This document shows, one piece after another, positions 9,584-57,064 of a DNA stretch of 64,000 bases. The DNA comes from a phage. The stretch is from sequence record NC_100327.1. One strand, given 5' to 3'. The first letter of the stretch is position 1, and each line of letters starts with the position of its first letter. The notes beneath the pieces are model-generated. The model had not been told where the DNA came from and searched no databases. It saw only the letters and a program-made list of their open reading frames with translations. A program made the position numbers and the translations under genes.

Positions 9584-10429
9584 TTATGCCAGTGCAGCCT
9601 CAAAATCTTTCATCATATTTTGGAAAGTTTTTGCCTTACTTAAGATAACACCGTGCTCTTTGGCGAAGGTTTGGAGTGCATCTTTTGAACCACTTTTGTC
9701 ATCTTCGTTGTTAAGAGCTGCGGCCTGCTGCAGTATGGCATCAACATCACTGCGAGAAGATCTTGATTCTTGTGCCTGTTCAGGATCCTGCTCAGTGCCT
9801 CCCGGTGCAGCCGGATCTGGGGATTCTCCACCCCCACCACCTGGTTCAGTAGGACCTACAGGTGGCTCCGGCTCTGGTTCAGGCAGTGGAGCTACCGTAG
9901 AAACCAGCCCAAGATTTACAACCTGAGAACGTTTCTTAGGCCACTCGATGGTGAAAGTTTGGGTATCTTCTTCATAAACAATGTTGCATTGCTCATCGTT
10001 TATGGTCACTTTTTTAGGCATACCTTCAGGGTCCCACAGATGGCCCTCTGCCACGGAAACTTTGAAAGCAGCATCTACCTCTTTAAACACTGACGGAGTG
10101 AGTGTAATATTGACATCCCCGCTTTGCAGTGTTAAAGTGCTTTCATCAAGGTTCTCTGTGAAGAACAGAAGAATAACACCCATACGGATAGTTGAAATAC
10201 CAGTATCAATTGGCAGGCCTGTGTGTTTTGCAATCTTCTCGAAGAAGTCTACAATCGTTCTACATGGATAGTGAACACTGCCGATAACGAATTCTGTTGG
10301 TGGCAGCAGGGCTGATAAACCAACATTGATTTCTGGATTATATTGTGCTAAAAATTGATAAAAACTTAACTGATTGTTGAAAACTCTTAATAGAGGATCA
10401 TACTCAACTGGGTAGACGGTTCGCTTCAC
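9584..10429 (-). CDS. structural protein with Pro/Glu-rich linker
   Basis: 281 aa; GTG start with AGGAG RBS; PEPEPEPP/GGGGG low-complexity linker; follows major capsid gene. Confidence 0.4.
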   Translation of the reverse strand: MKRTVYPVEYDPLLRVFNNQLSFYQFLAQYNPEINVGLSALLPPTEFVIGSVHYPCRTIVDFFEKIAKHTGLPIDTGISTIRMGVILLFFTENLDESTLTLQSGDVNITLTPSVFKEVDAAFKVSVAEGHLWDPEGMPKKVTINDEQCNIVYEEDTQTFTIEWPKKRSQVVNLGLVSTVAPLPEPEPEPPVGPTEPGGGGGESPDPAAPGGTEQDPEQAQESRSSRSDVDAILQQAAALNNEDDKSGSKDALQTFAKEHGVILSKAKTFQNMMKDFEAALA

Positions 10430-10511: not shown

Positions 10512-11522
10512 TTATTCACCACCTTTCAGAGTTGCTTTAACAACCAGCTCTGGACGGGTGTTAACTGCCAGCATGGAAGTTTCAGATTCAATCTTCTCTT
10601 CACGCAGGTATGCAGAGTGTTTATACCACATGTACAGTTCCTGTGCTGGAGTGTTTGCTTCGTTAACATCGTCTGCCGGAGCAAAGTGCAGCTGGAACAT
10701 CTGATCAATACCCATCGGCAGAATGCGAGCTTCTTTCTTAGGAATATTGCCAGAGATATCTTCGATAAAGGTGATACCTTTATGCTCAAACACACGGTAT
10801 ACGCTGTCTTGACCGCCAGCACCCAGACGGCGACGCAGAGGTTCCTGAGCAGAGCCGTAATAGGTATATGCCAGTTCTACCAGCGGGTGATGGGTAATAG
10901 CACTGAAGAACTCTGGTGAGCACAGGGCTACAATACGATAGCCAGCTGCGTTATCGCCAGCTTGCAGCGCGATGTGCAGACGAGCTTCTTCCAGAACCTC
11001 CATAGGATCCTGATCTGCTTTTGCAGGGTCAATCTCAACAGACTTCTGAGACACACCCCACAGAGTGTAGTAGTCATACTGACAGGTTGTGTCACCAGGT
11101 GCATAGGATTTACCCAGAATAGCCTGGAACAGCGCTTTCTCACGCAGTGCTTCATGAGAAACACGGATACGGCGAACAACGCGGGTTACTACATCCTGAA
11201 CAGTTTTCGGAGCATCTGGAGTGAAGTAACGACGGAAGTTCTGAACATCTGCTGCGGTGATGCCTTTGTCCAGAGGGAAGAACGGGATGTTCAGGTTTTT
11301 AACCTGAGCACGTTCACTACCAACGTAGTTACGCTCACCACCACGACGGCGTGCCGGAATATCGGTTACAACTTCATCAACACGCTCAATCTGAGCAATT
11401 GTTGAGGTGCCGAGACGGGTTTCGAACAGATCCATACCAGTAATCAGTCGGAATTGACGCGGAACAAGGTCCAGAGTAGCACCTAAATCAACAATGCCAA
11501 ATTCATCTTTACGAGTAATCAT
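10512..11522 (-). CDS. major capsid protein
   Basis: 336 aa, ATG with GGAG RBS, strong terminator downstream; position after scaffold; reminiscent of lambda-E/P2-N type coat proteins. Confidence 0.6.
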   Translation of the reverse strand: MITRKDEFGIVDLGATLDLVPRQFRLITGMDLFETRLGTSTIAQIERVDEVVTDIPARRRGGERNYVGSERAQVKNLNIPFFPLDKGITAADVQNFRRYFTPDAPKTVQDVVTRVVRRIRVSHEALREKALFQAILGKSYAPGDTTCQYDYYTLWGVSQKSVEIDPAKADQDPMEVLEEARLHIALQAGDNAAGYRIVALCSPEFFSAITHHPLVELAYTYYGSAQEPLRRRLGAGGQDSVYRVFEHKGITFIEDISGNIPKKEARILPMGIDQMFQLHFAPADDVNEANTPAQELYMWYKHSAYLREEKIESETSMLAVNTRPELVVKATLKGGE

Positions 11523-11570
11523 TTATTTCTCCAAAGTAAAACTTAAATATTTTCCCGAACAATTTAGGAC

Positions 11571-11960
11571 TTACTCTTCACCAAGAGTCTGGACGTGAAC
11601 TTTGTTACCCAGAGCTTCCAGCTTTTCAATAACAGCCTGCTTAGCTGCTTCACCGTTAGACCCCAGCAGCTTATCTTTTGCAAAGGTAACACCGTGAACT
11701 GCAACAACCAGTTTATATTTCTGACCTGTTTGCAGAGGCTCAGCAAGATGAACTTTTCCTGCATCTTTTACCAAAGCTCGGTCTACAAGAACACCATAAA
11801 CGTCTGAGCCATCATCGTTAGCGATAGTGCCAGTTTTTGTTACAACAGTACCAGCATGGTGGTGCTCTGTCAGTGTAATTTCCATCTCTTTAAAATTGTA
11901 GCCAGCATCGCTAGAATCAACTTTGCCGAGCACGATATCAGAATATTGAGCGGTAATCAT
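11571..11960 (-). CDS. head decoration/accessory capsid protein (position-based)
   Basis: 129 aa, ATG with GGGGGAAATAA RBS, between scaffold and capsid genes. Confidence 0.4.
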   Translation of the reverse strand: MITAQYSDIVLGKVDSSDAGYNFKEMEITLTEHHHAGTVVTKTGTIANDDGSDVYGVLVDRALVKDAGKVHLAEPLQTGQKYKLVVAVHGVTFAKDKLLGSNGEAAKQAVIEKLEALGNKVHVQTLGEE

Positions 11961-11980
11961 TTATTTCCCCCGTTAATGTC

Positions 11981-12958
11981 TTATTTGGTAGATTCTGCAC
12001 GTGCACGAGCAAGTGCTTTTGCAACGTTTTCAGCAAGAATTTCTTCTGCGGATTTTGCAATATCATCCACAACAGGTTCGCCATCATTACCATGTTCAGT
12101 GGTGGCAAACTCTTCTTTAGTTTTATGCACCTCTGCTTCCAGCTCTTCAATTTTTGCTTGAGCTTTCTCCAGCATAGCTACGATAGGTTCGTTAGCTTTT
12201 TCCAGCATGAAGTCAACCAGGGTTGCATGATCTTCTTCACCAACAAAGCTTAAAGCTTGAGCCTTAGTCAGCATTTTAGCTTTTTCAACTTCAACCTGGG
12301 CCTTGATGATTTCTTCAGCTTTACTCTGGGTTGCTTTCAGCTCTTCTACTTGCTTCAGCAGATCCAGATACTCTTTAGTTTTGGTTACGTCCACCGGATT
12401 CTCCTCGGTATTTGCGGATTTTGCAACATCATCCACCTCGGTAGTTTTATCCACCTCAGCAGGTTCCTGTACCGCCTTGATCAGGTTCCCTTCTTTATCG
12501 AAGAGATCAGCGGTTACTTGTTCAAAAATCTGTTGTGTTTTTAACAGGCTGTACTGATCTGCCACACTAAGCTGCTTGCCTTCTTTTGCAGCTTTATGAA
12601 TGGTCACGTTATCACAACGCTCTTCCAGCCATGCAATACAAGACTCTGCGTCAGCTTGCGCCCATTCCCAATCAGGATGCTCTTTAGCCCAAGCCTCCTC
12701 TTCAATCTCAAAACCAAGCATGTGTGCAAGTGCTTTAGCATCATCATACCACATATCGAAGAAACGACGCAGGTATTCTTCAAAACTAAGCTCCACAGTA
12801 ACTTGGCGAAGTGCCTTAACAATATCGTCTGTTAACTGCTCAGGCTTAAGATCACTCTTCATCAAAAGAGATACAGGTCTGTTGTTAGCGCTATAGCCTT
12901 GCGCCTTATGGCACAGGGCAATCCCCTTCTCTTTAATAGTAATCGTTTTTTCAGACAT
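11981..12958 (-). CDS. head scaffolding protein
   Basis: 325 aa, highly charged, predicted coiled-coil (EELEAEVHKTKEE...), ATG overlapping upstream stop. Confidence 0.55.
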   Translation of the reverse strand: MSEKTITIKEKGIALCHKAQGYSANNRPVSLLMKSDLKPEQLTDDIVKALRQVTVELSFEEYLRRFFDMWYDDAKALAHMLGFEIEEEAWAKEHPDWEWAQADAESCIAWLEERCDNVTIHKAAKEGKQLSVADQYSLLKTQQIFEQVTADLFDKEGNLIKAVQEPAEVDKTTEVDDVAKSANTEENPVDVTKTKEYLDLLKQVEELKATQSKAEEIIKAQVEVEKAKMLTKAQALSFVGEEDHATLVDFMLEKANEPIVAMLEKAQAKIEELEAEVHKTKEEFATTEHGNDGEPVVDDIAKSAEEILAENVAKALARARAESTK

Positions 12959-13377
12959 TATTCATTGCCCTCTTCTACAACACTGATCCCGAAGTTTACG
13001 TTGGTAATTTCACCAGTTTCTTCATCAACATTACCTGTTGCCTGAATGCTTAGGCCACCAACAATGCCAGCCTTCTTAGCTTCCCATAATTCAGGATTAT
13101 TGTATTTAACTTTAGCAACCCAAGAGCCAGCCTTGATGACCTGCTCAGTGCCAATTACTACAACATCAAACTCTTCTTGAATCCACGTCTTTTCAATAGT
13201 GAAAGCATCTGTAGAGGTCAAGTGAAAAAGGTTTTCAGAAACTAGGCCTGCGGCGTATGCTGCGTCCCAGTTATCTTTAGCCTTTTTGATGGTGTCTTTA
13301 CTCATCCACTCACCGTGAGCATCTTTAGTGTCAGGTTCGTAGATGATTTCGTAGGAAATCATTTCTTCCTGTGGCAT
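12958..13377 (-). CDS. head assembly protein (function uncertain)
   Basis: ORF track 12958..13533 overlaps portal 3' end; start placed at ATG (MPQEEM) with GGGGA RBS; no ClpP/U35 motifs recognised. Confidence 0.35.
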   Translation of the reverse strand: MPQEEMISYEIIYEPDTKDAHGEWMSKDTIKKAKDNWDAAYAAGLVSENLFHLTSTDAFTIEKTWIQEEFDVVVIGTEQVIKAGSWVAKVKYNNPELWEAKKAGIVGGLSIQATGNVDEETGEITNVNFGISVVEEGNE

Positions 13378-13444
13378 CTTATTCCCCATGTGGATTATTT
13401 TATCACGCCAAAGGAGGTTTTGCAACCCCCTGTGTTGATAATTT

Positions 13445-15001
13445 TTAATTTTCCATGTTGGATATGGAATTATCTCTGGTTGATGATATTTTAGAAGTGC
13501 CGTTTCCAGTGGATCCTGCAGCCATTCCATCACCAGCCCTACTGATGTCCTGGCCCAAGAGCTTCATCAGCTCTTCCTGATCCATGTCCTCGTCAAATCT
13601 TTCATCAAACCCGCCTACTTCAAGAATCTTATTAATTACTGCAGGAGTTTTTGGCAAGTAACCTACAGCACCGATCCTCTGGACAAACTTGGAGAAGCTC
13701 TCCATGTCCACTTCTTCGATCAGACCAGGTTTCAGTTTAGGCATATCATCATCTTCAAGGATGATACCATTCAATGCCAGAAGCTGTGGGATAAGATCTT
13801 TATTGAAGGCCTCAGTGATAATATCTATATCACGCTGAACAAAATGACCATGGATAGACTGTTTTGACTCAGACAGAGAGAAAGATCCGACGTTATCGTT
13901 ACCGAGGTTAATAAAGCCAGCACCGAAACGGTCAAGAATCGCCTTCTTACGGGCATCAATCAAATCTTTAGTGGAATACTGCTTACCCATACCGTCAACC
14001 CCCTTCAGGGTCATGGAGTAAAGCTCTTTACCAGACTTATCTCTATCAGACGGAAGTATAAAGAAACTTTGCTCACCACTATGGGCGTTTGCTGCGTCAA
14101 GCATAAGGTCTGCAACCATTCTCCCTTCCATTGAATTCGGGTCAATGCTGGCCTTGTTCAAAATATTGGAAGGAATTTTCAGCTCAAGCACACCACCAAG
14201 GTCTTTGGAACAGCCAACAACCTCAAGGTTTTCAATCAGAACTTTCTCACGGAAAGATCTGTAGCAACCTATCATTGGCGACACACCTGCAGGGTTAGAT
14301 TCTGTTCCTGACAGAGTCATGAGCATAAGCTTTTTAGCAGGGATGAAAATTTCAGGCTCATTAAAGCCTTTTGAAGGCATTGCAGCAAGAGGTCCAGCCC
14401 AGCGTGCATTCTGAGTGTTTAGAAATGCATTAGGTGACTGATAAATACCTGTCAGTGTTCTACTATTCTTGTCAAAGACAAACGGCTCTGATCTGGACAA
14501 ACTGGCCTGAGGTCGGAATGCAATTTTATCAATAAGAAGCATCCCGGCATATTTACCTTCTTTCTCTCTGCGGTATACTTTCTCAAACAGTGAAAAACCA
14601 TACTCGTTAAAGGTAGCTGCGCTTCTTGCAATATCTCGAAGAGTTTGTTGGTTTGCCAAATTACGCAAAGAATACTCTATAAGCTCGGCAGCTTTCTTAG
14701 AGTCTTCACTTTTAACATTATAAAGGATCTTAAAATCATTGAATGCTTTCGTGATGAAAACATACTTTGTATCTAAGGCAGTAGCAACTGTGGAATCACA
14801 TTTCATAGTCTCCACTGTAGCAATCAGCTGAGGCCAACGCAATTCCTCAACCATCATAGATTGCGATTCTGCCATAATTTGGGAAAGTGCGCCAGAACCG
14901 ATCTCACTCATACGAACATTATGAGTTGGTGCGCCTGCGTTCCCAGATTTATTCACAGTTTTGGCTGTGGCGTTGTGTTTCCTGCGGTTCTTTTTGGACA
15001 C
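13445..15001 (-). CDS. portal protein
   Basis: 518 aa, GTG start with GAGGGG RBS; size and position between terminase and scaffold. Confidence 0.7.
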   Translation of the reverse strand: MSKKNRRKHNATAKTVNKSGNAGAPTHNVRMSEIGSGALSQIMAESQSMMVEELRWPQLIATVETMKCDSTVATALDTKYVFITKAFNDFKILYNVKSEDSKKAAELIEYSLRNLANQQTLRDIARSAATFNEYGFSLFEKVYRREKEGKYAGMLLIDKIAFRPQASLSRSEPFVFDKNSRTLTGIYQSPNAFLNTQNARWAGPLAAMPSKGFNEPEIFIPAKKLMLMTLSGTESNPAGVSPMIGCYRSFREKVLIENLEVVGCSKDLGGVLELKIPSNILNKASIDPNSMEGRMVADLMLDAANAHSGEQSFFILPSDRDKSGKELYSMTLKGVDGMGKQYSTKDLIDARKKAILDRFGAGFINLGNDNVGSFSLSESKQSIHGHFVQRDIDIITEAFNKDLIPQLLALNGIILEDDDMPKLKPGLIEEVDMESFSKFVQRIGAVGYLPKTPAVINKILEVGGFDERFDEDMDQEELMKLLGQDISRAGDGMAAGSTGNGTSKISSTRDNSISNMEN

Positions 15002-15103: not shown

Positions 15104-15910
15104 TTAGATAAAACGCTTGAACATAGAAGGTGATGAGATTGATGGAATCACACAAGGAAGTGCTACCTCCTCTTTCTCCAGGAAATTAATCGCAGAAGCT
15201 ACACAGTCAGCCCAGTCGTCTTTTCTGTTAAATGTTGATCTTTCCCCGTTGAATTTTTCAAGTTCGGTCAGAAATGCTTCCAGAGTATCAGGATGGAAAC
15301 TGGATTTTACAATCCTTACCATTCCTTGTTGGGCAAGATTGGCAAAAGGTGAGAACCTTGTCAGTTTAGACTTGTTGGAAGGCATTGGGTCTTCTTCAAC
15401 CCTAAACCCTTCGGCGAGCAAGGATCTGGAGGAGGTTAAGAACTCACTCTTACCTGCCTGACCGGGGTCCACAGAGAATACGATTATACAATCATCACCA
15501 TCAAACTGCGCCTGTTTCCTGATGATCACATCTCGTTCACCAGCCTTTTTACAGAACTTGCCTTCCAGACCTGTGGAATACCTCCCGTCATCCACGTTCT
15601 CAGGACAATAATCACCGGACAGGTAATAAAAGCCGTCGCTATCTTTACTTACCTTAACACTGGCGGTAAAGTCAGGAAATTTATTACCGGAAGTTCTCTC
15701 GGTTCCTGCCTTATCCCATGCCCTGCAAGATACTGACCCAAGAGGTACTCTATCGGCATCACGAAGGAAAGATCTTTGAAAATAGTTTGCACCCTCAGGC
15801 TTTGCAAACCAGTTACCATGGAGAAGCTGAGCTTTTTCCAGCTCTGGTAGACCTTCGAGGAAAGCAAGGTATTCTGGGTTGTCTCTCAAACAGACAGGAT
15901 TATCGAATCC
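15104..15910 (-). CDS. terL: terminase large subunit, nuclease domain (coding segment 3 of 3)
   Basis: Frame open from 15910 to stop at 15104-15106; no ATG at 5' end (track M is TTG); AWDKAG and DDWADC nuclease-type motifs; 5' boundary approximate. Confidence 0.65.
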   Translation of the reverse strand, partial: GFDNPVCLRDNPEYLAFLEGLPELEKAQLLHGNWFAKPEGANYFQRSFLRDADRVPLGSVSCRAWDKAGTERTSGNKFPDFTASVKVSKDSDGFYYLSGDYCPENVDDGRYSTGLEGKFCKKAGERDVIIRKQAQFDGDDCIIVFSVDPGQAGKSEFLTSSRSLLAEGFRVEEDPMPSNKSKLTRFSPFANLAQQGMVRIVKSSFHPDTLEAFLTELEKFNGERSTFNRKDDWADCVASAINFLEKEEVALPCVIPSISSPSMFKRFI

Positions 15911-16883
15911 TTATATTCAAAGGTGGTCGCAACACCACCCTCCGCACCATTACGTGCTGCTGCATGTTACCATGCAGAGTAGACTATATCACCACCCATC
16001 TCAGGGTGCTTCGCTTTTCGAGCGCCATAAGCTTGCGCCCTACTCCCTCTCGGGATAGTCGTTGAACTACATTACCAATCGTAATTGTTTGAAATATAGG
16101 TGTAAGTCTTACGGTCTTTTATTCCTTTAACAACACTAAAACTTACTCCCCACTTCTTAGCTATTTTATTTACACACAAAACCCTATCACTAAGATCCTC
16201 GCAGATACCTATTATCTTGTGCTCACTTATCCTATTAGAGGTTGGCACTTTTCTAAAGTTAAACTCTTTAGAAATATCTGGGTATACTGAGCCATTCTTT
16301 ATACCACTTACAAGTGGTTGATTGACACCAAACATTTCACAAATGTCTTTTACCCTTGCACCTTGCTCTAACAGCCTACATATTTCAAGAGCAGTGGCAT
16401 CATCTAGGGACCTGTATTTATTGACATAGTCCTTTTTAAGTCCCATTTCATGAGCGTGATGTGTGTTTTCCTCAGGCGTTGTCCACTCAAGGTTCCATGC
16501 GGCGTTATTCAACTTATTACCATCCAGGTGGTTTACTTGAGTTTTCACGCTGGGATTATCATTATCAACAAAAGTCATAGCGATAACTCTATGGACTAGC
16601 ACTTGGAACTTTTTCCCGCCCTCGCACAAAGTGACCATAGCATAGCCAGTCTTTTTCTGCACATTAGGATGGAGGAATTTATTAGAATACAGACTGTAAA
16701 TTCTGCCATCGTATGTAGCACAATAATGATTGTAGCCTAAAAAGCCTAAATTTCTCATTTCAAACATCTCCCTACTACAGGTTCGGAAGGGTAATTATAG
16801 CTGCTGATTGTCCGTTTAGCAATCGGATTTTCCAGCAATTAACGAAGTTATTCGACGTGCATTTCTGCACGAAGCCACTATCA
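15911..16883 (-). mobile_element. intron-like insertion with HNH homing endonuclease ORF (candidate group I intron)
   Basis: About 970 nt between terminase segments 2 and 3; GC-richer non-coding flanks around a free-standing HNH ORF; boundaries approximate. Confidence 0.5.
16072..16767 (-). CDS. HNH homing endonuclease
   Basis: 231 aa, ATG start; NHLDGNKLNN...HH HNH motif and C-terminal DNA-binding helix region. Confidence 0.75.
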   Translation of the reverse strand: MFEMRNLGFLGYNHYCATYDGRIYSLYSNKFLHPNVQKKTGYAMVTLCEGGKKFQVLVHRVIAMTFVDNDNPSVKTQVNHLDGNKLNNAAWNLEWTTPEENTHHAHEMGLKKDYVNKYRSLDDATALEICRLLEQGARVKDICEMFGVNQPLVSGIKNGSVYPDISKEFNFRKVPTSNRISEHKIIGICEDLSDRVLCVNKIAKKWGVSFSVVKGIKDRKTYTYISNNYDW

Positions 16884-17207
16884 TTTAATGGTTGCGCCTA
16901 TAAACGAGAATGACAACGGTCTTGGCTTGATCTCCACACCCAGTCCGTTAACCGTGGTGTATTTCTCTATCAACTCTTCTTTAGAGTCTCCCCAGATAAA
17001 TTCACCGTCGCGTCGGATAAAATATCTTTTCTTACCGCATTTCTCCGGATCTGGATACCCTTCATCGTCCAACCACCATCTAACCAGTTTGGCAAGCATG
17101 TGTTCTGAATCGGGGTTACAGCTGATAACCATTCTTGATGGATACTTTGACTGAGATCGCAGACGAGACATCAGGTAGTCTATCTGCTCCCATTCGAACT
17201 GTGTCGT
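16884..17207 (-). CDS. terL: terminase large subunit (coding segment 2 of 3)
   Basis: Frame open between stops at 17208-17210 and 16881-16883; track ORF 16881..17171; VISCNPD motif-III-like sequence; boundaries approximate. Confidence 0.6.
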
Positions 17208-18087
17208 TTATGTTCGGGCAAGGTCGCTAGTCTTGCCCCGCCATTTTCAGGCAGCTGCATGTCTCCATGCAGACCAGACTATATCTTATGAATGTGCAAA
17301 TACTCTGCCGCTCTAAGAATAGTTTCCTCATCCTCTTGGAAGAAACCTAAAGCTCTGTTGCATTTATCACAAAGCAACCCTCTTACAGCACCAGTTTTAT
17401 GGTCATGATCAACACAAAAGAAATCTCTGTACCCTTGCGTCCTATACTCATCAAGAGATATTCTACAAATGGCACACTTATGATCTTGATCTGAGAGTAG
17501 ACGATAGTATTCATCTTTTGTTATGTGAAATTTCTTCTCAATCTGATAAAACTTTTCACACATCTTACACCTGTTCGTAACCAGATATACTTTACCATAG
17601 TCACGTTTTGTGTAAAAACTATCAGCGAGCATACTTTCATGACAAGATTTGCATTCAAAAAGTTCACCTTTCTTCAGCAAGTCTTGAATAAATAATGCTG
17701 CGTCATCTCTCTTAACCATATTTTTGTTTCTACGAGATCCACCATTCCTGTAGTACATATAGCATTCCTTGCATGTACCTGAGTATCCATCCTTGCTCTT
17801 AGATGATAAAAAGAAATCATCAATAGGTAGAACTCTTTGGCAATCCATACATTTTTTAGTATTACACATTCACCCTCCCGTTTCGAATCGCTTGATTCTA
17901 CGTCTTTCGACTAGTCGTTGAACGTTCATCCTCTCGGATGCTTCGCTGCGGATTATCTAAATTAACACACTGTTACCATACCTTCGATCTCTCTTCGAAG
18001 CCTCTATCATGTTACCATGACAGGTTGGTGGTGTCAATAATAAAGATTTCCCCGCAATTAGGGAGGTTTTACGAGAGCTACAAATTA
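17208..18087 (-). mobile_element. intron-like insertion with Endonuclease-VII-type homing endonuclease ORF (candidate group I intron)
   Basis: About 880 nt between terminase segments 1 and 2; structured non-coding flanks; boundaries approximate. Confidence 0.5.
17279..17869 (-). CDS. Endonuclease VII-family (His-Me finger) homing endonuclease
   Basis: 196 aa, ATG start; multiple CxxC pairs and CVDHDHKTGAVRGLLCDKCN motif. Confidence 0.7.
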   Translation of the reverse strand: MCNTKKCMDCQRVLPIDDFFLSSKSKDGYSGTCKECYMYYRNGGSRRNKNMVKRDDAALFIQDLLKKGELFECKSCHESMLADSFYTKRDYGKVYLVTNRCKMCEKFYQIEKKFHITKDEYYRLLSDQDHKCAICRISLDEYRTQGYRDFFCVDHDHKTGAVRGLLCDKCNRALGFFQEDEETILRAAEYLHIHKI

Positions 18088-47880: not shown

Positions 47881-47918
47881 AAGTACTTGGCACATCTCAA
47901 TCTGAAAGGAGTCCCAAC

Positions 47919-48707
47919 ATGGGTCGAGCTAAAGAAACAAAACGCATGCGTGATGAAGCTAGAGAGGCTCGCAAATCTGATCGCCTGCGTAAGGCTGCTG
48001 AGAAATTTGCTGACGAAAGAGAGCACACCGCTCCAGCTCTCCGACCAATGAATAAGAAGCAGCAAAAGTATCTTGATTATCTAGGGTCACGTAAGATTAT
48101 TATTGTAAACGGTGTGTTTGGATCCGGTAAGACATTTATGGCATCTGCATATGCAGGTGATCTTCTGCGTAAGAACGAGATTGATAAGATCATTGTTGCA
48201 CGTCCTTACGTCCAGACAGGAAAGACTTCAGGATTTAAACCCGGAAATGCAATGCAGAAACTGTGGCCCTATCTTCGAAGCATGATGGACACGATTTGTC
48301 GTCGTGTTGGCAAAGGTGCTTTTACCGCAATGCTGGGAGACGGTCAGAACAGTCGTATCGAGATTTGTGAAGTTGAAAGCATTCGTGGTCGTAGTTTCGA
48401 TGAGCGATGCTTTGTCCTGATTGACGAGGCACAGCAAACTAACCCTGAAGAAATGTTGTCAATTATCACAAGGATCTCTGATCAAGCCACCCTTGTAATT
48501 ATGGGTGATAATAGCCAACGTGACATCCCTGGTAAATCTGGCCTCGCATGGGTGACGGATTTCTTTACTCGTCATCCAGATCCTGAGGTTGGAATGATTA
48601 GCTTTGATAGTCCAGACGATGTCGTTCGTTCCGGGTTGGGTCGTCAGATTGCACTCAATCTTATTGAAGATCGTGCAAATCATATTTGGACCCCTGTTTC
48701 CGAGTAA
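47919..48707 (+). CDS. phoH: PhoH-like ATPase
   Basis: 262 aa, ATG with AAGGAG RBS; Walker A GVFGSGKTF; Walker B CFVLIDEAQ. Confidence 0.85.
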   Translation: MGRAKETKRMRDEAREARKSDRLRKAAEKFADEREHTAPALRPMNKKQQKYLDYLGSRKIIIVNGVFGSGKTFMASAYAGDLLRKNEIDKIIVARPYVQTGKTSGFKPGNAMQKLWPYLRSMMDTICRRVGKGAFTAMLGDGQNSRIEICEVESIRGRSFDERCFVLIDEAQQTNPEEMLSIITRISDQATLVIMGDNSQRDIPGKSGLAWVTDFFTRHPDPEVGMISFDSPDDVVRSGLGRQIALNLIEDRANHIWTPVSE

Positions 48708-48752
48708 TACAGAAGGGTGGTTATTCCACCCTTAAAATATCTAAAACAGTTG

Positions 48753-48781
48753 TTGACAAACAGGTAAGCTTTAGATATTAT
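48753..48781 (+). promoter_or_regulatory. sigma70-type promoter
   Basis: TTGACA - 17 nt - TATTAT. Confidence 0.6.
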
Positions 48782-48811
48782 CATCGGACAAAACAAGGAG
48801 AAGGAGATAGT

Positions 48812-49123
48812 ATGGCTACAATACAAGAGAGACTGAATAAAATATACTGCCTGTTCGTCTACAACGGTGAGACAATTTTGGCAAATAAAGGATCCAAGAA
48901 TGTGTGGATCAAGGACAGTGGTGGTAATATAATCAACTTAGCGTTGCTACGTGAGCGCCGACACAGATTCTTTATCGAGTCTCGAATTATTGAAAGCAGC
49001 ACCTGCTACAGAACAGGCGATAAAGTAATTGTTGACAATGATACGTGGTATGTGGTAGACTGGCAATCATTGAGTTGTGATGCTTCTGACAATCGTAAGT
49101 ATTCCATAGTGATTGCTAAATAA
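48812..49123 (+). CDS. hypothetical protein
   Basis: ORF track 48686..49123; start moved to ATG (MATIQERL) with AAGGAGAAGGAG RBS. Confidence 0.5.
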   Translation: MATIQERLNKIYCLFVYNGETILANKGSKNVWIKDSGGNIINLALLRERRHRFFIESRIIESSTCYRTGDKVIVDNDTWYVVDWQSLSCDASDNRKYSIVIAK

Positions 49124-49183
49124 AGGTAAATGTGAATCAGGTTTAAATAAATAGCTTTCAACTTCCAATATTAAGGATTTCTC

Positions 49184-50230
49184 ATGAATTTAACACCTCG
49201 CAGCACCATGGTACACGGCATGAAAGAAAAACAGAACGGTTTCGAACCTATGAGTAATAAAATGTTTGGTATGCCGGGCGGTATCATGGAAACATACAGC
49301 TACCCAACACCTGTTGTTGACCACGTTCTTTATATCGACGATTTGGAAGACCTGCAGGATCATATGTCTCGTCTGCAGACGATCCGTATGGCTCAGCCGG
49401 AAGAAAGCATTCGGGTGATCATCAATAGCCCTGGTGGTTGCGTGCACATTGCAATGGCTTATCTACAGGCATTCCGCGAGTCTCAGGCAAGCGTTGTTGC
49501 ACATGCTGAAGGGATGTGCTGCTCTGCGGGAACAATCTTATGGCTGGGTTGTAAAGAACGCACTGTGGCTCCGGACACAGAATTTATGTTCCACTACTAT
49601 CAAGGTGGCACTTATGGTAACGGTGTGAACATGAATACTCAGGTCAGCTACTGGAAAAAACGTTTTGAACGCCTGATCGAAAAATACTACGGTGGGGTGC
49701 TGACAGAAGATGAGATCGCATCCATCACAGCTGGTGGTGAAGTGTGGTTGGACGGAGAGGAGCTGGCAGCTCGAACTGGAGCCATCATTCTGGATGAAGG
49801 TAACATACAGCGCATCCAGAACGGACAAAAACCTAAAAAGCTTCTGGCAAAAGGTGATGAAGGCGTGTTAGGTGAAGCAGGTCTTCCTGAGATTCACCAG
49901 TGCACCTCTTTAGATGAGCTAGTTCATGCTGTTGAATCTGCGAAAGCGGTTGGTTCGAAAGGTGATGTTCACACTGTGTTCCTAAATCTGCAGATGGAAA
50001 GTGGTGAGACCATTAAGATTGCCTTAGGTGAGATTACCTCAGAAGATCTGCAGCGATTCTCTGTCGTTGAACTTCAAGACATTCTGTCCCAATTGAAGAC
50101 AACCCTGAACGGCGGTGAAGAGGTTAAGGTAAAAGATAAGACTCGCAAGCGTCTGGTGGACAATATTATTAAAACAGCAAAAGAGCTCAATGAAAAAATC
50201 CTGGGTGCAGGAATTGTCGAAGAAGCTTAA
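49184..50230 (+). CDS. ClpP-like (S14-family) serine peptidase with ~150-aa C-terminal extension
   Basis: 348 aa, ATG with AAGGA RBS; INSPGG, CCSAGTILWLG (Ser) and FMFHYYQGG (His) align with ClpP catalytic regions. Confidence 0.7.
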   Translation: MNLTPRSTMVHGMKEKQNGFEPMSNKMFGMPGGIMETYSYPTPVVDHVLYIDDLEDLQDHMSRLQTIRMAQPEESIRVIINSPGGCVHIAMAYLQAFRESQASVVAHAEGMCCSAGTILWLGCKERTVAPDTEFMFHYYQGGTYGNGVNMNTQVSYWKKRFERLIEKYYGGVLTEDEIASITAGGEVWLDGEELAARTGAIILDEGNIQRIQNGQKPKKLLAKGDEGVLGEAGLPEIHQCTSLDELVHAVESAKAVGSKGDVHTVFLNLQMESGETIKIALGEITSEDLQRFSVVELQDILSQLKTTLNGGEEVKVKDKTRKRLVDNIIKTAKELNEKILGAGIVEEA

Positions 50231-50242
50231 ACATTAATTCTA

Positions 50243-50268
50243 AAGCCCTCTTCGGAGGGCTTTTATGA
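50243..50268 (+). terminator. rho-independent terminator
   Basis: AAGCCCTC-ttcg-GAGGGCTT followed by TTAT. Confidence 0.65.
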
Positions 50269-50281
50269 TCTGGAGATTTGC

Positions 50282-50815
50282 ATGACTTGTGCTAGAAAAC
50301 CTGATGAACAACGTAACGCTTACGATGAGTATGTGACACCGGAGTGGTGTGCAGAAGGGCTGTATGACCTTATTCCGTTCCCAGAAGACTGGACCTATTT
50401 AGAGCCTTGCAGGAATAGTGCCTCAGGTGTGTTCTACTCACGTATGCCGTTAGGATCTGCATGGGGAGAAATCCAAGAAGGTGTTGACTATCTGAATACA
50501 GAATACAACCATGTTGACTGTATTATCACCAACCCACCATACAGTTTGGCTCGTGAGTTTGTAGACAAGGCGTTGAAAGATGCTGACGTAGTTATTATGC
50601 TTTTGCGTCTTAATTTTCTGGAAAGCAAAGCCAGATTTGAATGGTGGCTTGATAATGCACCTACCACTGTGATCACAATATCTAAGCGTCCATCTTTTCA
50701 ATCAAATGGCAGAACTGACGGGCAAGCATATGCATATTTTGTCTGGGATAAGAAAAACCGTTTAGACTTGCCGCCATTTATGTGGTTGGCACCTCCAGAG
50801 GTAGACCTGAAATGA
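50282..50815 (+). CDS. small phage-type N6-adenine DNA methyltransferase
   Basis: 177 aa, ATG with GGAG RBS; motif IV DCIITNPPYS. Confidence 0.65.
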   Translation: MTCARKPDEQRNAYDEYVTPEWCAEGLYDLIPFPEDWTYLEPCRNSASGVFYSRMPLGSAWGEIQEGVDYLNTEYNHVDCIITNPPYSLAREFVDKALKDADVVIMLLRLNFLESKARFEWWLDNAPTTVITISKRPSFQSNGRTDGQAYAYFVWDKKNRLDLPPFMWLAPPEVDLK

Positions 50816-51096
50816 AAATGAGTGCTAAGGACAAATTACACCAGTTAGCGCTAAAACGTCCTGTAACGCTTCCTGACGAGCTTAACTCTATTTATGATGC
50901 GATTGTAGGGGAGATACAAAATAAAGCGTTAGCAGGCTTTCTGGGGTGCGGATTTTCGATAAATCTACCATCGCATCTCTCAGATTACTTCCCGCACATT
51001 GTTGGAGATTTAAGGGCAGGAGGTCTGCAGGTAGATGTTGTTGGCATCTCCCCAGAGAAAAATAATACGGTTGCCTACTTGACAGTAACCTGGTAG
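50812..51096 (+). CDS. hypothetical protein
   Basis: ORF track 50782..51096; ATG overlapping upstream stop (ATGA). Confidence 0.45.
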   Translation: MKMSAKDKLHQLALKRPVTLPDELNSIYDAIVGEIQNKALAGFLGCGFSINLPSHLSDYFPHIVGDLRAGGLQVDVVGISPEKNNTVAYLTVTW

Positions 51097-51132
51097 TTGT
51101 GTATTGTTGTTTTCAACAAGAGGGGGTCATTT

Positions 51133-52976: not shown

Positions 52977-53073
52977 GATGCTATCTGGGGTATTGTTACT
53001 GGTAGCCATCTTAGGTGGTGCAGTTCTGATGTATAACTATCTTGAAAAAGGAGACAGCAATGGTAAAAAATAA
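52954..53073 (+). CDS. hydrophobic micro-peptide (candidate)
   Basis: Found by hand; GTG after GGGAGG; ...MFIEMLSGVLLLVAILGGAVLMYNYLEK... Confidence 0.3.
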   Translation: MFQAMFIEMLSGVLLLVAILGGAVLMYNYLEKGDSNGKK

Positions 53074-53245
53074 ATCTTTAGAGCAGGCTGAAAACCTTCT
53101 CCACGAGCTGGTAAAGGAGTGGAAAGTTGAATACTCAGATTTTAATGCACGAGAGGGTGAAGATTATTGGCCTACGGAGCGCTCAGAGGGCGAATGGTAT
53201 CAAGATTTTATAGAGTGGTTATATCAGACGTGCGATGAGGGGTGA
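53060..53245 (+). CDS. hypothetical small acidic protein
   Basis: ORF track 53042..53245; ATG at codon 7 with AAGGAG RBS. Confidence 0.45.
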   Translation: MVKNKSLEQAENLLHELVKEWKVEYSDFNAREGEDYWPTERSEGEWYQDFIEWLYQTCDEG

Positions 53246-53247
53246 CG

Positions 53248-53712
53248 ATGTTTGTTAAATATGTAAAAACGTGCCTCAACAGTCTTGGCAGAGAGCATTG
53301 GTACACCTTGCTTGAAAAAGGGGAAATTTTAACAAAATCTGGAAAGATAACTTTGATACCTCTTGATAGTAAAGGTAAAGACCCGTCACGACTTGTTATA
53401 GATGATTACGTTACAGGTGTGACGTTCGAGGTCTCTGTGGAGAGGTTAATACGCAGAGCTGGCGGCCCTTATGACCGAAGAGAGTATGTTTTCGATTCCG
53501 TTACAGAGATGGGGGAGCATCCGTCTTTAATGTTCAGGATGGTAATCAGAGATATGAGGTCATCTATAGATAGGATCGTAAAGGACATTAAGGAACCTTT
53601 TAGAGTAAAAGTTAAGAAGTTTTTCGATTCTAAGATTAACATACTCGCCGTTGCACTAGGTGTAGTTCAACTTCTGTTAATTTTGCACTATTTTGAACTA
53701 CTATTTAAGTAG
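53248..53712 (+). CDS. C-terminally membrane-anchored protein
   Basis: ORF track 53242..53712; ATG at codon 3; C-terminal hydrophobic helix ILAVALGVVQLLLILHYF. Confidence 0.5.
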   Translation: MFVKYVKTCLNSLGREHWYTLLEKGEILTKSGKITLIPLDSKGKDPSRLVIDDYVTGVTFEVSVERLIRRAGGPYDRREYVFDSVTEMGEHPSLMFRMVIRDMRSSIDRIVKDIKEPFRVKVKKFFDSKINILAVALGVVQLLLILHYFELLFK

Positions 53713-56746: not shown

Positions 56747-57064
56747 ATGCAAATTGAAATCACTGGCAACGTAGAAATCACTGAAGGTATGGTGTCTTTC
56801 ATTTCCCACAAAATGTCTAAGCTGGAGCGTTTGCATCCCTCTGCCAACTATGCACGTGTGAGTGTAAAAGTTGAAAATGATCACCAGGAAGTTATGGCGT
56901 TCATTTTTGACAATTCTGGAAAAGAAGTTATTGCCAAAGCTAAAGGCAGTGATGCTTACGAGGCAACTGACCGTATGGTAGATGTTGCAGCACGTCAGCT
57001 GGCTAAATGCGGTGGAAAGAAAGGTAAGGGGAAAGGCAAAGTAAAGATTGACTTTGGAGAATGA
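56747..57064 (+). CDS. ribosome hibernation factor-like protein (HPF/RaiA/YfiA family)
   Basis: 105 aa; MQIEITGNVEITEG...KLER...VKVEN...AKGSDAYEATDRMVDVAARQLAK parallels E. coli HPF as recalled; Gly/Lys-rich tail. Confidence 0.7.
   Translation: MQIEITGNVEITEGMVSFISHKMSKLERLHPSANYARVSVKVENDHQEVMAFIFDNSGKEVIAKAKGSDAYEATDRMVDVAARQLAKCGGKKGKGKGKVKIDFGE

What the first reader, a model, noticed from the sequence alone, without database searches (positions are those of the whole stretch)
49184..50230. ClpP-like serine peptidase with a C-terminal extension, located far from the head-assembly genes
The N-terminal ~200 aa align with ClpP catalytic regions (INSPGG, CCSAGTILWLG, FMFHYYQGG) and are followed by ~150 aa of charged sequence. 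ClpP-fold enzymes in phages usually act as prohead proteases, often fused to scaffold, beside portal and capsid genes. Here the gene sits on the opposite strand ~35 kb away among nucleotide-metabolism genes, while the head module shows no recognisable protease. It is either a displaced prohead protease-scaffold fusion or a peptidase with a non-morphogenetic role.
Basis: partly seen in the sequence, partly recalled or inferred. Interest (0 to 1): 0.6.

Follow-up and report, generated by a model that had tools for sequence, protein, structure and literature searches.

The report
Non-structural ClpP-like peptidase of rV5-like phage
This is the already-annotated "ClpP-like protease" of rV5-type coliphages: a ClpP-fold serine peptidase that is probably not the capsid-maturation enzyme (the head module has its own protease), whose real job in the infected cell is still unknown.

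Summary
The ORF (49184-50230, +, 348 aa) is real, and the window is a Vequintavirus (rV5-like) genome. The gene is 100% identical to annotated "ClpP-like protease" genes (rV5 ORF122) and matches PHROG 5410 over its full length.

- **Domain layout:** disordered N-tail, ClpP-fold domain (aa 45-212), variable linker, and a conserved 85-aa C-terminal domain found almost only in this family.
- **Active site:** Ser114 and His137 are invariant. The Asp position is Glu186 here and Gln in most relatives.
- **ClpX/ClpA docking:** the pocket positions are polar, and it scores far below the true-ClpP models, so the "ATP-dependent" label is unsupported.

A conserved XkdF/S78-type prohead protease lies right after the portal gene (12958-13533, -).

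Evidence for a non-structural role:
- The ClpP-like gene sits in its own σ70-promoter-to-terminator unit among nucleotide-metabolism genes.
- It is absent from two virion proteomes (rV5, CB7).
- Its ICP1 homologue is "middle-late", not late.
- Close relatives lie in replication blocks; only weak hits lie between portal and capsid genes.

Verdict: a known, functionally uncharacterised, probably non-morphogenetic phage peptidase. One new lead: a PhoH-like ATPase lies just upstream in 12 of 18 clade loci, sometimes with overlapping stop/start codons.

The parts
49184..50230 (+). ClpP-like serine peptidase gene (348 aa), equivalent to rV5 ORF122 and BASEL bas48_0177
   Evidence: ORF; Pfam CLP_protease; phrog_5410 full length; 100% identity to annotated genes
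49184..49315 (+). N-terminal tail, aa 1-44. It is predicted disordered and has conserved FG..PG and YSYP motifs. It has no counterpart of ClpP helix A or the axial loops.
   Evidence: pLDDT <50; conservation; alignment to E. coli ClpP
49316..49819 (+). ClpP-fold peptidase domain, aa 45-212. Catalytic codons: Ser114 at 49523-49525, His137 at 49592-49594, Glu186 (Asp position) at 49739-49741.
   Evidence: Foldseek versus PDB ClpPs; hhalign; MAFFT column mapping; conservation counts
49820..49966 (+). Variable linker, aa 213-261
   Evidence: Low conservation (0.27) and low pLDDT
49967..50227 (+). Conserved lineage-specific C-terminal domain, aa 262-348: a beta-hairpin followed by a helix-extension-helix-like pair of helices
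   Evidence: Model pLDDT 80.6; only 7 representatives in 1.84 billion proteins; weak SAP/HeH/Rho_N hints
48753..48781 (+). Sigma-70-type promoter (TTGACA-17-TATTAT), equivalent to rV5 P121
   Evidence: Consensus scan, 11/12 matches; listed as P121 by the rV5 authors
48812..49123 (+). Small co-transcribed ORF (103 aa, phrog_5456, unknown function), conserved in 4MG
50242..50268 (+). Intrinsic terminator hairpin (GCCCTC-TTCG-GAGGGC followed by TTTTAT), equivalent to rV5 t122
   Evidence: Sequence; fold -14.7 kcal/mol, z=-2.6; rV5 Table S4 t122
47919..48707 (+). PhoH-like P-loop ATPase, the recurrent upstream neighbour of this peptidase clade
   Evidence: Pfam PhoH E=3e-47; neighbourhood survey
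50282..50815 (+). N6-adenine DNA methyltransferase, the downstream neighbour (also in 4MG and P7_Pc; a Dam-type methylase follows in Barbavirus)
12958..13533 (-). The head module's own prohead protease (Peptidase_S78_2, XkdF type), with invariant His73, His104 and Ser162
   Evidence: Pfam E=1e-17; PHROG head-maturation-protease hits; conservation; homologue CB7_5 found in virions
10512..15001 (-). Head module: portal (13445-15001), protease, scaffold-like 325-aa protein (11981-12958), decoration protein (11571-11960), major capsid protein (10512-11522)

Best explanation
The gene encodes a non-structural ClpP-fold serine peptidase, expressed in the middle or middle-late period. It belongs to a widespread but functionally uncharacterised clade of 'ATP-dependent protease' genes in large virulent phages (PHROG 5410 plus 1827).

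**Shown:**
- It has the ClpP fold.
- The nucleophile Ser114, the general base His137 and the oxyanion-hole Gly84-Gly85 are invariant.
- It sits in its own sigma-70 promoter-to-terminator unit, together with a 103-aa ORF, among nucleotide-metabolism genes.
- Capsid maturation has its own S78/XkdF-type protease next to the portal gene.

**Inferred:**
- The protein assembles into ClpP-like rings and cleaves host or phage proteins in the cytoplasm of the infected cell, not inside procapsids.
- The family-specific C-terminal domain and N-terminal tail supply partner or substrate recognition.
- It does not dock host ClpX/ClpA in the canonical way, because the hydrophobic pocket positions, the axial loops and the Asp/Arg ring sensor are all replaced.

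The substrates are unknown.
For: **Identity and fold:**

**Active site under selection:** the clade-wide alignment of 13 sequences (31% mean column identity) has only 8 invariant columns. Five of them are G84, G85, S114, A115 and H137. S114 and H137 are present in 22 of 22 family members.

**Separate head protease:** PF14550 hit. It is 60-78% conserved across many large phage contigs, with invariant His and Ser residues. It is annotated as the prohead protease in relatives, and CB7_5 was detected in virions.

**Not a virion component:**
- The rV5 mass spectrometry found 19 proteins, and ORF122 is not among them.
- The CB7 virion has 26 proteins, with no ClpP-like protein.

**Transcription:**
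- A sigma-70 promoter and a terminator bracket the unit.
- The rV5 late motif occurs only upstream of structural genes. Exact matches in the window lie only in the structural block.
- ICP1 homologue gp211 is 'Middle-late', like PhoH gp208. The capsid cluster gp122-126, with its own protease gp125, is late.

**Context dichotomy:**
- Strong clade members (E<=1e-38) lie in replication or nucleotide-metabolism blocks.
- Weak hits (E about 1e-9 to 1e-12) lie between portal and major capsid genes.

**Literature:** Iyer et al. 2021 already proposed that patchily distributed phage ClpP genes are deployed against the host.
Against: - No experiment addresses this protein, and no Vequintavirus transcriptome was found.
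- Prohead proteases often leave the mature virion, so absence from virion proteomes is weak evidence.
- The same + strand block encodes an abundant virion protein (window 53242-53712), so location alone does not exclude a structural role.
- By HMM score the domain is closer to ClpP-related head maturation proteases (60 bits) than to cellular ClpP (33-39 bits).
- Most relatives have Gln at the Asp position (18 of 22), so catalytic efficiency is uncertain.
- Oligomeric state could not be modelled.
- The list of docking-pocket residues is recalled from the ClpP literature and was tested only by alignment, not on coordinates.
Confidence: 0.6

Rival explanations
1. It is an auxiliary morphogenetic protease. 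It would process virion components (scaffold, portal, internal proteins or the tape measure protein) together with, or instead of, the S78-type enzyme, and the C-terminal helix-loop-helix would target it to the assembling particle.
For: - The closest curated model is the ClpP-related head maturation protease, and there are PHROG head-maturation hits.
- Middle-late timing in ICP1 just precedes assembly.
- A virion protein gene lies 3 kb downstream in the same block.
- The phiTE (Certrevirus) cryo-EM study infers tape-measure cleavage by an unidentified protease.
- Scaffold proteins such as that of P22 use a C-terminal helix-turn-helix to bind coat protein (established knowledge, not tested here).
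Against: - A dedicated, highly conserved head protease exists.
- The protein was not detected in rV5 or CB7 virions, whereas CB7_5 and the scaffold-like CB7_6 were.
- The C-terminal domain shows no similarity to this phage's scaffold candidate or head protease.
- Clade members occur in phages that have their own head protease: ICP1 gp125, and by established knowledge T4-like KVP40 and T5-like phages.
- True ClpP-type prohead proteases sit between portal and capsid genes.
Confidence: 0.15
2. It is a decoy or hijacker of the host Clp system. Either it is a weakly active ClpP paralogue that forms mixed rings with host ClpP, or its N-terminal FG-containing tail occupies host ClpP docking pockets. 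The effect would be to redirect or block host ClpXP/ClpAP, for example to stabilise phage proteins or to blunt abortive-infection systems that depend on proteolysis.
For: - The Asp position is Gln in 18 of 22 relatives.
- Listeria ClpP1 carries Asn there and is active only in ClpP1/P2 hetero-complexes (recalled literature, not tested here).
- Phages are known to manipulate host Clp, for example the SPO1 adaptor-like protein acting on ClpCP and phage ClpS genes.
- The disordered N-tail has a conserved FG motif.
Against: - Strict conservation of Ser, His and the oxyanion hole across about 25%-identical lineages argues for catalysis as the selected function.
- Identity to E. coli ClpP is only about 20%, and ring-interface and sensor residues are replaced, so mixed rings are doubtful.
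- The clade spans hosts with very different ClpP proteins.
Confidence: 0.1
3. It is a displaced prohead protease-scaffold fusion that serves as the phage's head maturation protease.
For: ClpP-type prohead proteases fused to coiled-coil scaffolds exist, for example P0184 (394 aa, with coiled-coil Pfam hits). The gene has a long C-terminal extension.
Against: - Its premise fails, because the head module encodes a protease.
- The extension has no coiled-coil. It is a linker plus an 85-aa alpha/beta domain.
- A separate 325-aa scaffold-like protein sits in the head module.
- Expression signals and virion proteomes point away from this role.
Confidence: 0.05

Closest known systems
Phage 'ATP-dependent protease' / ClpP-like genes: rV5 ORF122, 4MG_144, ICP1 gp211, KVP40 clpP (PHROG 5410 and 1827)
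   Same: The sequence is identical or homologous. These genes share the non-structural genomic position, the Ser-His active site, and often the PhoH neighbour.
   Different: Nothing differs: this is that gene. Only the Vequintavirinae-type members carry the conserved C-terminal domain. ICP1 and F99 have long but unrelated C-terminal extensions, and other members are short (182-240 aa).
Bacterial ClpP (MEROPS S14; TIGR00493), the proteolytic core of ClpXP/ClpAP
   Same: It has the same fold, including the handle helix. Ser and His are in equivalent positions, the GG oxyanion-hole motif is present, and the Q-G-G strand motif is retained.
   Different: - About 20% identity; 33 bits against a cut-off of 308.6.
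- Glu or Gln replaces Asp.
- The Asp/Arg ring sensor is replaced by Gly-Gly.
- The docking-pocket positions Y60/Y62/F82/I90/M92 are R/I/E/H/E.
- There is no helix A and there are no axial loops.
- It carries an extra N-tail and an extra C-terminal domain.
ClpP-related phage head maturation proteases (NCBIfam NF045542; PHROG 1684, 94, 2976, 133)
   Same: These are its best-scoring curated relatives. They share the ClpP fold without the ClpX-docking features.
   Different: - The score is below the family cut-off (60 against 120).
- The gene is not between portal and capsid genes, unlike true members.
- It has no scaffold or capsid fusion.
- It co-exists with a different head protease.
XkdF/HK97-type S78 prohead proteases
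   Same: This family supplies the actual head-module protease of this phage (window 12958-13533).
   Different: It has an unrelated fold and sequence.

Membership tests
Pfam CLP_protease (PF00574) / ClpP-crotonase-fold peptidases | HMM score above the gathering threshold, and a ClpP fold | tested here: met
   47.7 bits against a cut-off of 20.2. Foldseek probability 1.0 and TM about 0.7 to solved ClpPs.
Bona fide ClpP (TIGR00493 and PRK equivalogs) | Equivalog HMM score above the curated cut-off | tested here: not met
   33.2 bits against 308.6. All ClpP models are far below their cut-offs.
Bona fide ClpP | Ser-His-Asp catalytic triad | tested here: not met
   Ser114 and His137 are present. 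The Asp position is Glu186 here, Gln in 18 of 22 relatives, and Asp only in ICP1, KVP40 and the Klebsiella T5-like phage.
Bona fide ClpP | Hydrophobic pocket for the IGF/LGF loops of ClpX/ClpA, and N-terminal axial loops | tested here: not met
   Alignment columns for E. coli Y60/Y62/F82/I90/M92/F112/L114 hold R/I/E/H/E/T/A. R77, E99, H107 and E109 are invariant. The N-terminus is disordered and does not align. Caveat: the residue list is recalled from the literature, and the test is by alignment, not on coordinates.
Bona fide ClpP | Double-heptamer chamber and ATP-dependent degradation with an AAA+ partner | not testable with these tools
   No multimer modelling or biochemistry was available.
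ClpP-related head maturation protease (NF045542) | HMM score above the curated cut-off | tested here: not met
   60.4 bits against 120.
ClpP-related head maturation protease | Gene located in the head module, typically between portal and major capsid or scaffold genes | tested here: not met
   The gene is 35 kb away on the other strand. True examples L016 and L017 show portal-ClpP-capsid order.
ClpP-related head maturation protease | Present in procapsids and cleaves capsid or scaffold proteins | not testable with these tools
   Only mature-virion proteomes exist. The protein is absent from the rV5 and CB7 virions.
Prohead protease-scaffold fusion | A long coiled-coil scaffold domain fused to the protease | tested here: not met
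   The extension is a linker plus an 85-aa alpha/beta domain, with no coiled-coil Pfam hits. Compare P0184, which has them.
PHROG 5410 / 1827 phage 'ATP-dependent protease' | Full-length profile match and a non-structural context | tested here: met
   E=2e-153 over aa 24-344. Context was checked in 18 loci.
SAP / HeH / Rho_N helix-extension-helix domains (for the C-terminal domain) | A significant profile or fold match | tested here: inconclusive
Known anti-phage defence components (PADLOC) | A match to any defence-system protein model | tested here: not met
   No hit for the ClpP-like protein.

The most novel reading that the evidence does not exclude
The ClpP-like peptidase and the upstream PhoH-like P-loop ATPase form a conserved two-gene functional module of large virulent phages. 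It could be an unconventional ATPase-peptidase pair, or a coupled RNA/protein turnover unit. Evidence for the pairing:
- PhoH lies upstream on the same strand in 12 of 18 clade loci from at least five or six distinct lineages.
- No other neighbour recurs in more than 3 of the 12 GenBank loci.
- Stop and start codons overlap in three loci.
- One locus carries a PIN-PhoH fusion.
- PhoH and ClpP share the same temporal class in ICP1.

If true, this would give the first functional handle on phage PhoH, a widely used marker gene of unknown role.
Probability: 0.15. Interest if true: 0.7.

Novelty: already known. Interest (0 to 1): 0.3.

Why it matters
The gene itself is ordinary in the sense that it is already annotated in more than a hundred genomes. 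It matters in three modest ways:
1. Its usual label, "ATP-dependent Clp protease subunit", is probably misleading. The features that couple ClpP to ClpX/ClpA are not conserved, and it is not the head protease either.
2. It represents a widespread clade of non-structural phage peptidases with no known substrate. These are candidates for host takeover or anti-defence functions.
3. Its recurrent linkage to PhoH offers a testable clue to the long-unexplained function of phage PhoH.

Tried and rejected
- **Displaced prohead protease-scaffold fusion:** rejected. The head module has its own S78/XkdF protease, and the extension is not scaffold-like.
- **My first reading of the Asp position:** I initially took the catalytic Asp to be replaced by Ile181. 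This was an indexing error, corrected by numbering E. coli ClpP and mapping the columns: the position is Glu186.
- **C-terminal domain as a widespread module:** rejected. A profile search of 1.84 billion representatives found only 7 hits, almost all with the same architecture.
- **C-terminal domain as a SAP/HeH DNA-binding domain:** only sub-threshold, though mutually consistent, hints, and the domain is acidic. Left as inconclusive.
- **Defence-system component:** no PADLOC match.
- **Technical failures:** The search for related loci with the clade-wide alignment failed because it had no sufficiently conserved stretch. The afdb50 fold library was unavailable.
- **Literature:** searches found no functional study of phage ClpP and no Vequintavirus transcriptome.
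- **phiTE supplementary mass spectrometry tables:** not held in the library.
- **Late-promoter motif scan with one mismatch:** not discriminating. Only the exact matches are informative.

Full report
**What the window is.** The 3.2 kb around the finding is 100% identical to Escherichia phages A51.2, pangalan, CarlMeissner and MaxTheCat. It is 97-98% identical to rV5-type phages in general. The window is therefore a Vequintavirus (subfamily Vequintavirinae). In those records the gene is annotated as 'ClpP-like protease', 'ATP-dependent protease subunit' or 'ClpP ATP-dependent protease subunit'. In the type phage rV5 it is ORF122 (349 aa), annotated as ClpP in the original genome paper (PMC3606486, Table S3).

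**Checking the observation.**
- The ORF 49184..50230 (+) of 348 aa exists. It has an AAGGA ribosome-binding site 8 nt upstream of the ATG.
- Pfam CLP_protease matches aa 59-168 at E=2e-12, above the gathering score.
- PHROG 5410 ('ATP-dependent protease') matches aa 24-344 at E=2e-153.
- An AlphaFold model built on 22 homologues (mean pLDDT 77; about 90 in the core) matches solved ClpP chains with probability 1.0 and TM about 0.7 normalised to the target.
- A profile alignment places Ser114 on the ClpP nucleophile and His137 on the catalytic His.
- The gene is indeed about 35 kb from the minus-strand head genes. It lies downstream of thyX, nrdA, nrdB, glutaredoxin, nrdD and nrdG.

The head module does contain a recognisable protease.
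- The 191-aa ORF at 12958-13533 (-), immediately downstream of the portal gene, matches PF14550 (Peptidase_S78_2, XkdF-type phage serine protease) at E=1e-17, with 64.6 bits against a cut-off of 24. It also matches several head-maturation-protease PHROGs.
- It is followed by a 325-aa acidic, helical scaffold-like protein, then the decoration protein and a lambda-E-type major capsid protein.
- The protease core is 60-78% identical across many 80-150 kb phage contigs. It has invariant His73, His104 and Ser162, as expected for an HK97/assemblin-type enzyme.
- Relatives annotate it as the prohead protease (PMC8879037). The Certrevirus homologue CB7_5 was detected in virions by mass spectrometry (PMC7344957).

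**Anatomy of the ClpP-like protein.**
- Residues 1-44 are predicted disordered, but carry conserved FG..PG and YSYP motifs.
- Residues 45-212 are the ClpP-fold domain, including the handle helix (aa 150-169).
- Residues 213-261 are a poorly conserved linker.
- Residues 262-345 form a conserved small domain: a beta-hairpin, a short helix, and two helices separated by a 12-residue loop.

The extension is only mildly enriched in charged residues (30% against 22% in the protease domain) and is acidic.

A profile of the C-terminal domain finds only 7 cluster representatives among 1.84 billion proteins, almost all with the same ClpP fusion architecture. It is therefore a lineage-specific appendage. 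Its helix-extension-helix part gives consistent but sub-threshold hints of SAP/HeH/Rho_N-type domains. I regard this assignment as inconclusive. The domain has no similarity to this phage's scaffold candidate or head protease.

**How ClpP-like is it?** I aligned it with E. coli ClpP and eight distant phage homologues.
- Ser, His and the Gly-Gly of the oxyanion hole are invariant.
- The catalytic Asp position (E. coli precursor D185) is Glu186 here. It is Gln in 18 of 22 close relatives, and Asp only in ICP1, KVP40 and a Klebsiella T5-like phage.
- The preceding Asp/Arg ring-sensor positions are Gly-Gly.
- The positions that line the hydrophobic ClpX/ClpA docking pocket in E. coli ClpP are Y60, Y62, F82, I90 and M92. 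This residue list is recalled from the ClpP literature. Here they are Arg77, Ile79, Glu99, His107 and Glu109, four of which are invariant in the family.
- The N-terminal helix A and the axial loops have no counterpart.
- NCBIfam scores confirm the distance: 33 bits against a cut-off of 308.6 for the ClpP equivalog. The best match is the ClpP-related head maturation protease model, at 60 bits against a cut-off of 120.

The protein is therefore a ClpP-fold peptidase related to phage ClpP-type proteases. It is not a bona fide ClpP, and nothing supports the 'ATP-dependent' label.

In the clade-wide alignment (31% mean column identity), five of the eight invariant columns are active-site residues. 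This argues that catalysis is the selected function.

**Expression and location.**
- A near-consensus sigma-70 promoter (TTGACA-17-TATTAT, 48753-48781) precedes a 103-aa ORF of unknown function (48812-49123) and the peptidase gene.
- A GC-rich hairpin with a TTCG loop and a T-tract follows the stop codon.
- The rV5 authors independently list these as promoter P121 and terminator t122. They found their candidate late motif only upstream of structural genes 27-66. Exact copies of that motif in this window occur only in the structural block.
- No Vequintavirus transcriptome was found.
- In ICP1, homologue gp211 is classed 'Middle-late', together with PhoH gp208. The capsid cluster gp122-126, with its own protease gp125, is late (PMC7567579).
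- The protein was not among the 19 proteins of rV5 virions or the 26 proteins of CB7 virions.

Caveats: maturation proteases often leave the virion. The same + strand block also encodes an abundant virion protein (rV5 ORF133; window 53242-53712). Location and virion absence are therefore supportive, not decisive.

**Comparative context.** Homologues occur in at least 945 phage records. I examined 12 GenBank lineages and 6 metagenomic loci of the clade.
- In Vequintavirus, Seunavirus, Certrevirus, ICP1, Vibrio phage F99, Otagovirus, Barbavirus, Pakpunavirus, KVP40 and T5-like phages, the gene lies among replication, nucleotide-metabolism, tRNA or lysis genes. In an N4-like phage it sits beside, but transcribed away from, the terminase cluster. 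In none of them is it between portal and capsid genes.
- The weak hits of the same profile search (E about 1e-9 to 1e-12) sit exactly between portal and HK97-type capsid genes, or carry a coiled-coil scaffold fusion.
- This dichotomy is the strongest evidence that the rV5 gene belongs to a distinct non-morphogenetic clade that shares ancestry with ClpP-type prohead proteases.
- Iyer et al. 2021 (PMC7824862) already suggested that patchily distributed phage ClpP genes target the host.

**The PhoH lead.** A PhoH-like ATPase lies upstream on the same strand in 12 of the 18 loci.
- The two genes are directly adjacent in Otagovirus, Barbavirus, L014, L018 and L019.
- Stop and start codons overlap by 8, 1 and 4 nt in UNO-G1W1, L018 and L019.
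- L015 carries the order nrdB, nrdA, PIN-PhoH, DUF723, ClpP-like, DnaB.
- In an all-against-all comparison of the 12 GenBank loci, PhoH recurs in 7. No other neighbour recurs in more than 3.
- The pairing is not obligatory. Pakpunavirus, KVP40, T5-like and N4-like phages lack it, and PhoH is far more widespread than the peptidase (3058 records against 945).
- PhoH-type proteins are thought to be RNA helicases.
- In rV5 a promoter separates the two genes.

Inherited synteny among related myoviruses could explain part of the pattern. I found no paper that notes the association.

**Verdict.** The finding describes a real gene that is already known and annotated.
- The second alternative, a non-morphogenetic peptidase, is the best reading, at about 0.6 confidence.
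- The mechanism beyond 'ring-forming Ser-His peptidase acting in the infected cell, with family-specific terminal domains for targeting' remains inferred.
- Interest is modest. It would rise if the PhoH pairing proved functional.

Noticed in passing
window 47919-48707 with 49184-50230; loci L003, L004, L005, L008, L010, L013, L014, L015, L018, L019, L023: A PhoH-like ATPase gene lies upstream of the ClpP-like gene on the same strand in 12 of 18 clade loci. In three loci the stop and start codons overlap, and one locus has a PIN-PhoH fusion. No other neighbour is comparably conserved. I found no paper that mentions this.
   Followed up: partly
window 53242-53712 (+): A 'virion structural protein' gene (phrog_7821) lies in the non-structural block. 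It corresponds to rV5 ORF133, one of the predominant proteins in rV5 virion mass spectrometry. It might correspond to the abundant hexamer-centre 'Pagoda' protein pTE217 of phiTE, which is also encoded outside the structural module, but that was not tested. A one-mismatch late-promoter-like motif lies at 53061-53070.
   Followed up: partly
window 15104-17869 (-): The ORF at 15104-15889 matches only the C-terminal part of the terminase large subunit (profile positions 380-621 of 642). It is followed by an HNH endonuclease ORF (16072-16767) and an endonuclease VII-like ORF (17279-17869). This suggests a terminase gene interrupted by a homing-endonuclease element, as reported for Certrevirus CB7.
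   Followed up: no
window 12958-13533 versus 13445-15001 (-): The longest ORF for the head protease overlaps the end of the portal gene by about 90 nt. Its first 50 or so residues are not conserved in homologues, so the true start is probably further downstream.
   Followed up: partly
window 9584-10429 (-): This 281-aa protein of unknown function sits next to the major capsid gene. Its C-terminus weakly matches a PHROG labelled 'minor head protein inhibitor of protease' (E=9e-7).
   Followed up: no
window 56747-57064 (+): The phage encodes a ribosome hibernation factor (RaiA/HPF) homologue. It is annotated in CarlMeissner and rV5 and has its own sigma-70-type promoter in rV5.
   Followed up: no
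search results for window 47900-51100: Nineteen GenBank records named 'Campylobacter phage' (for example A141 and A147) are 90-99% identical to this E. coli Vequintavirus region. Their host assignment looks doubtful.
   Followed up: no
L005 3932-4912 (ICP1 gp211); L013 3935-4861 (Vibrio phage F99): The ICP1-type homologues also have C-terminal extensions of about 130 aa, but these show no detectable similarity to the Vequintavirinae C-terminal domain. The same peptidase core seems to have acquired C-terminal appendages more than once.
   Followed up: partly
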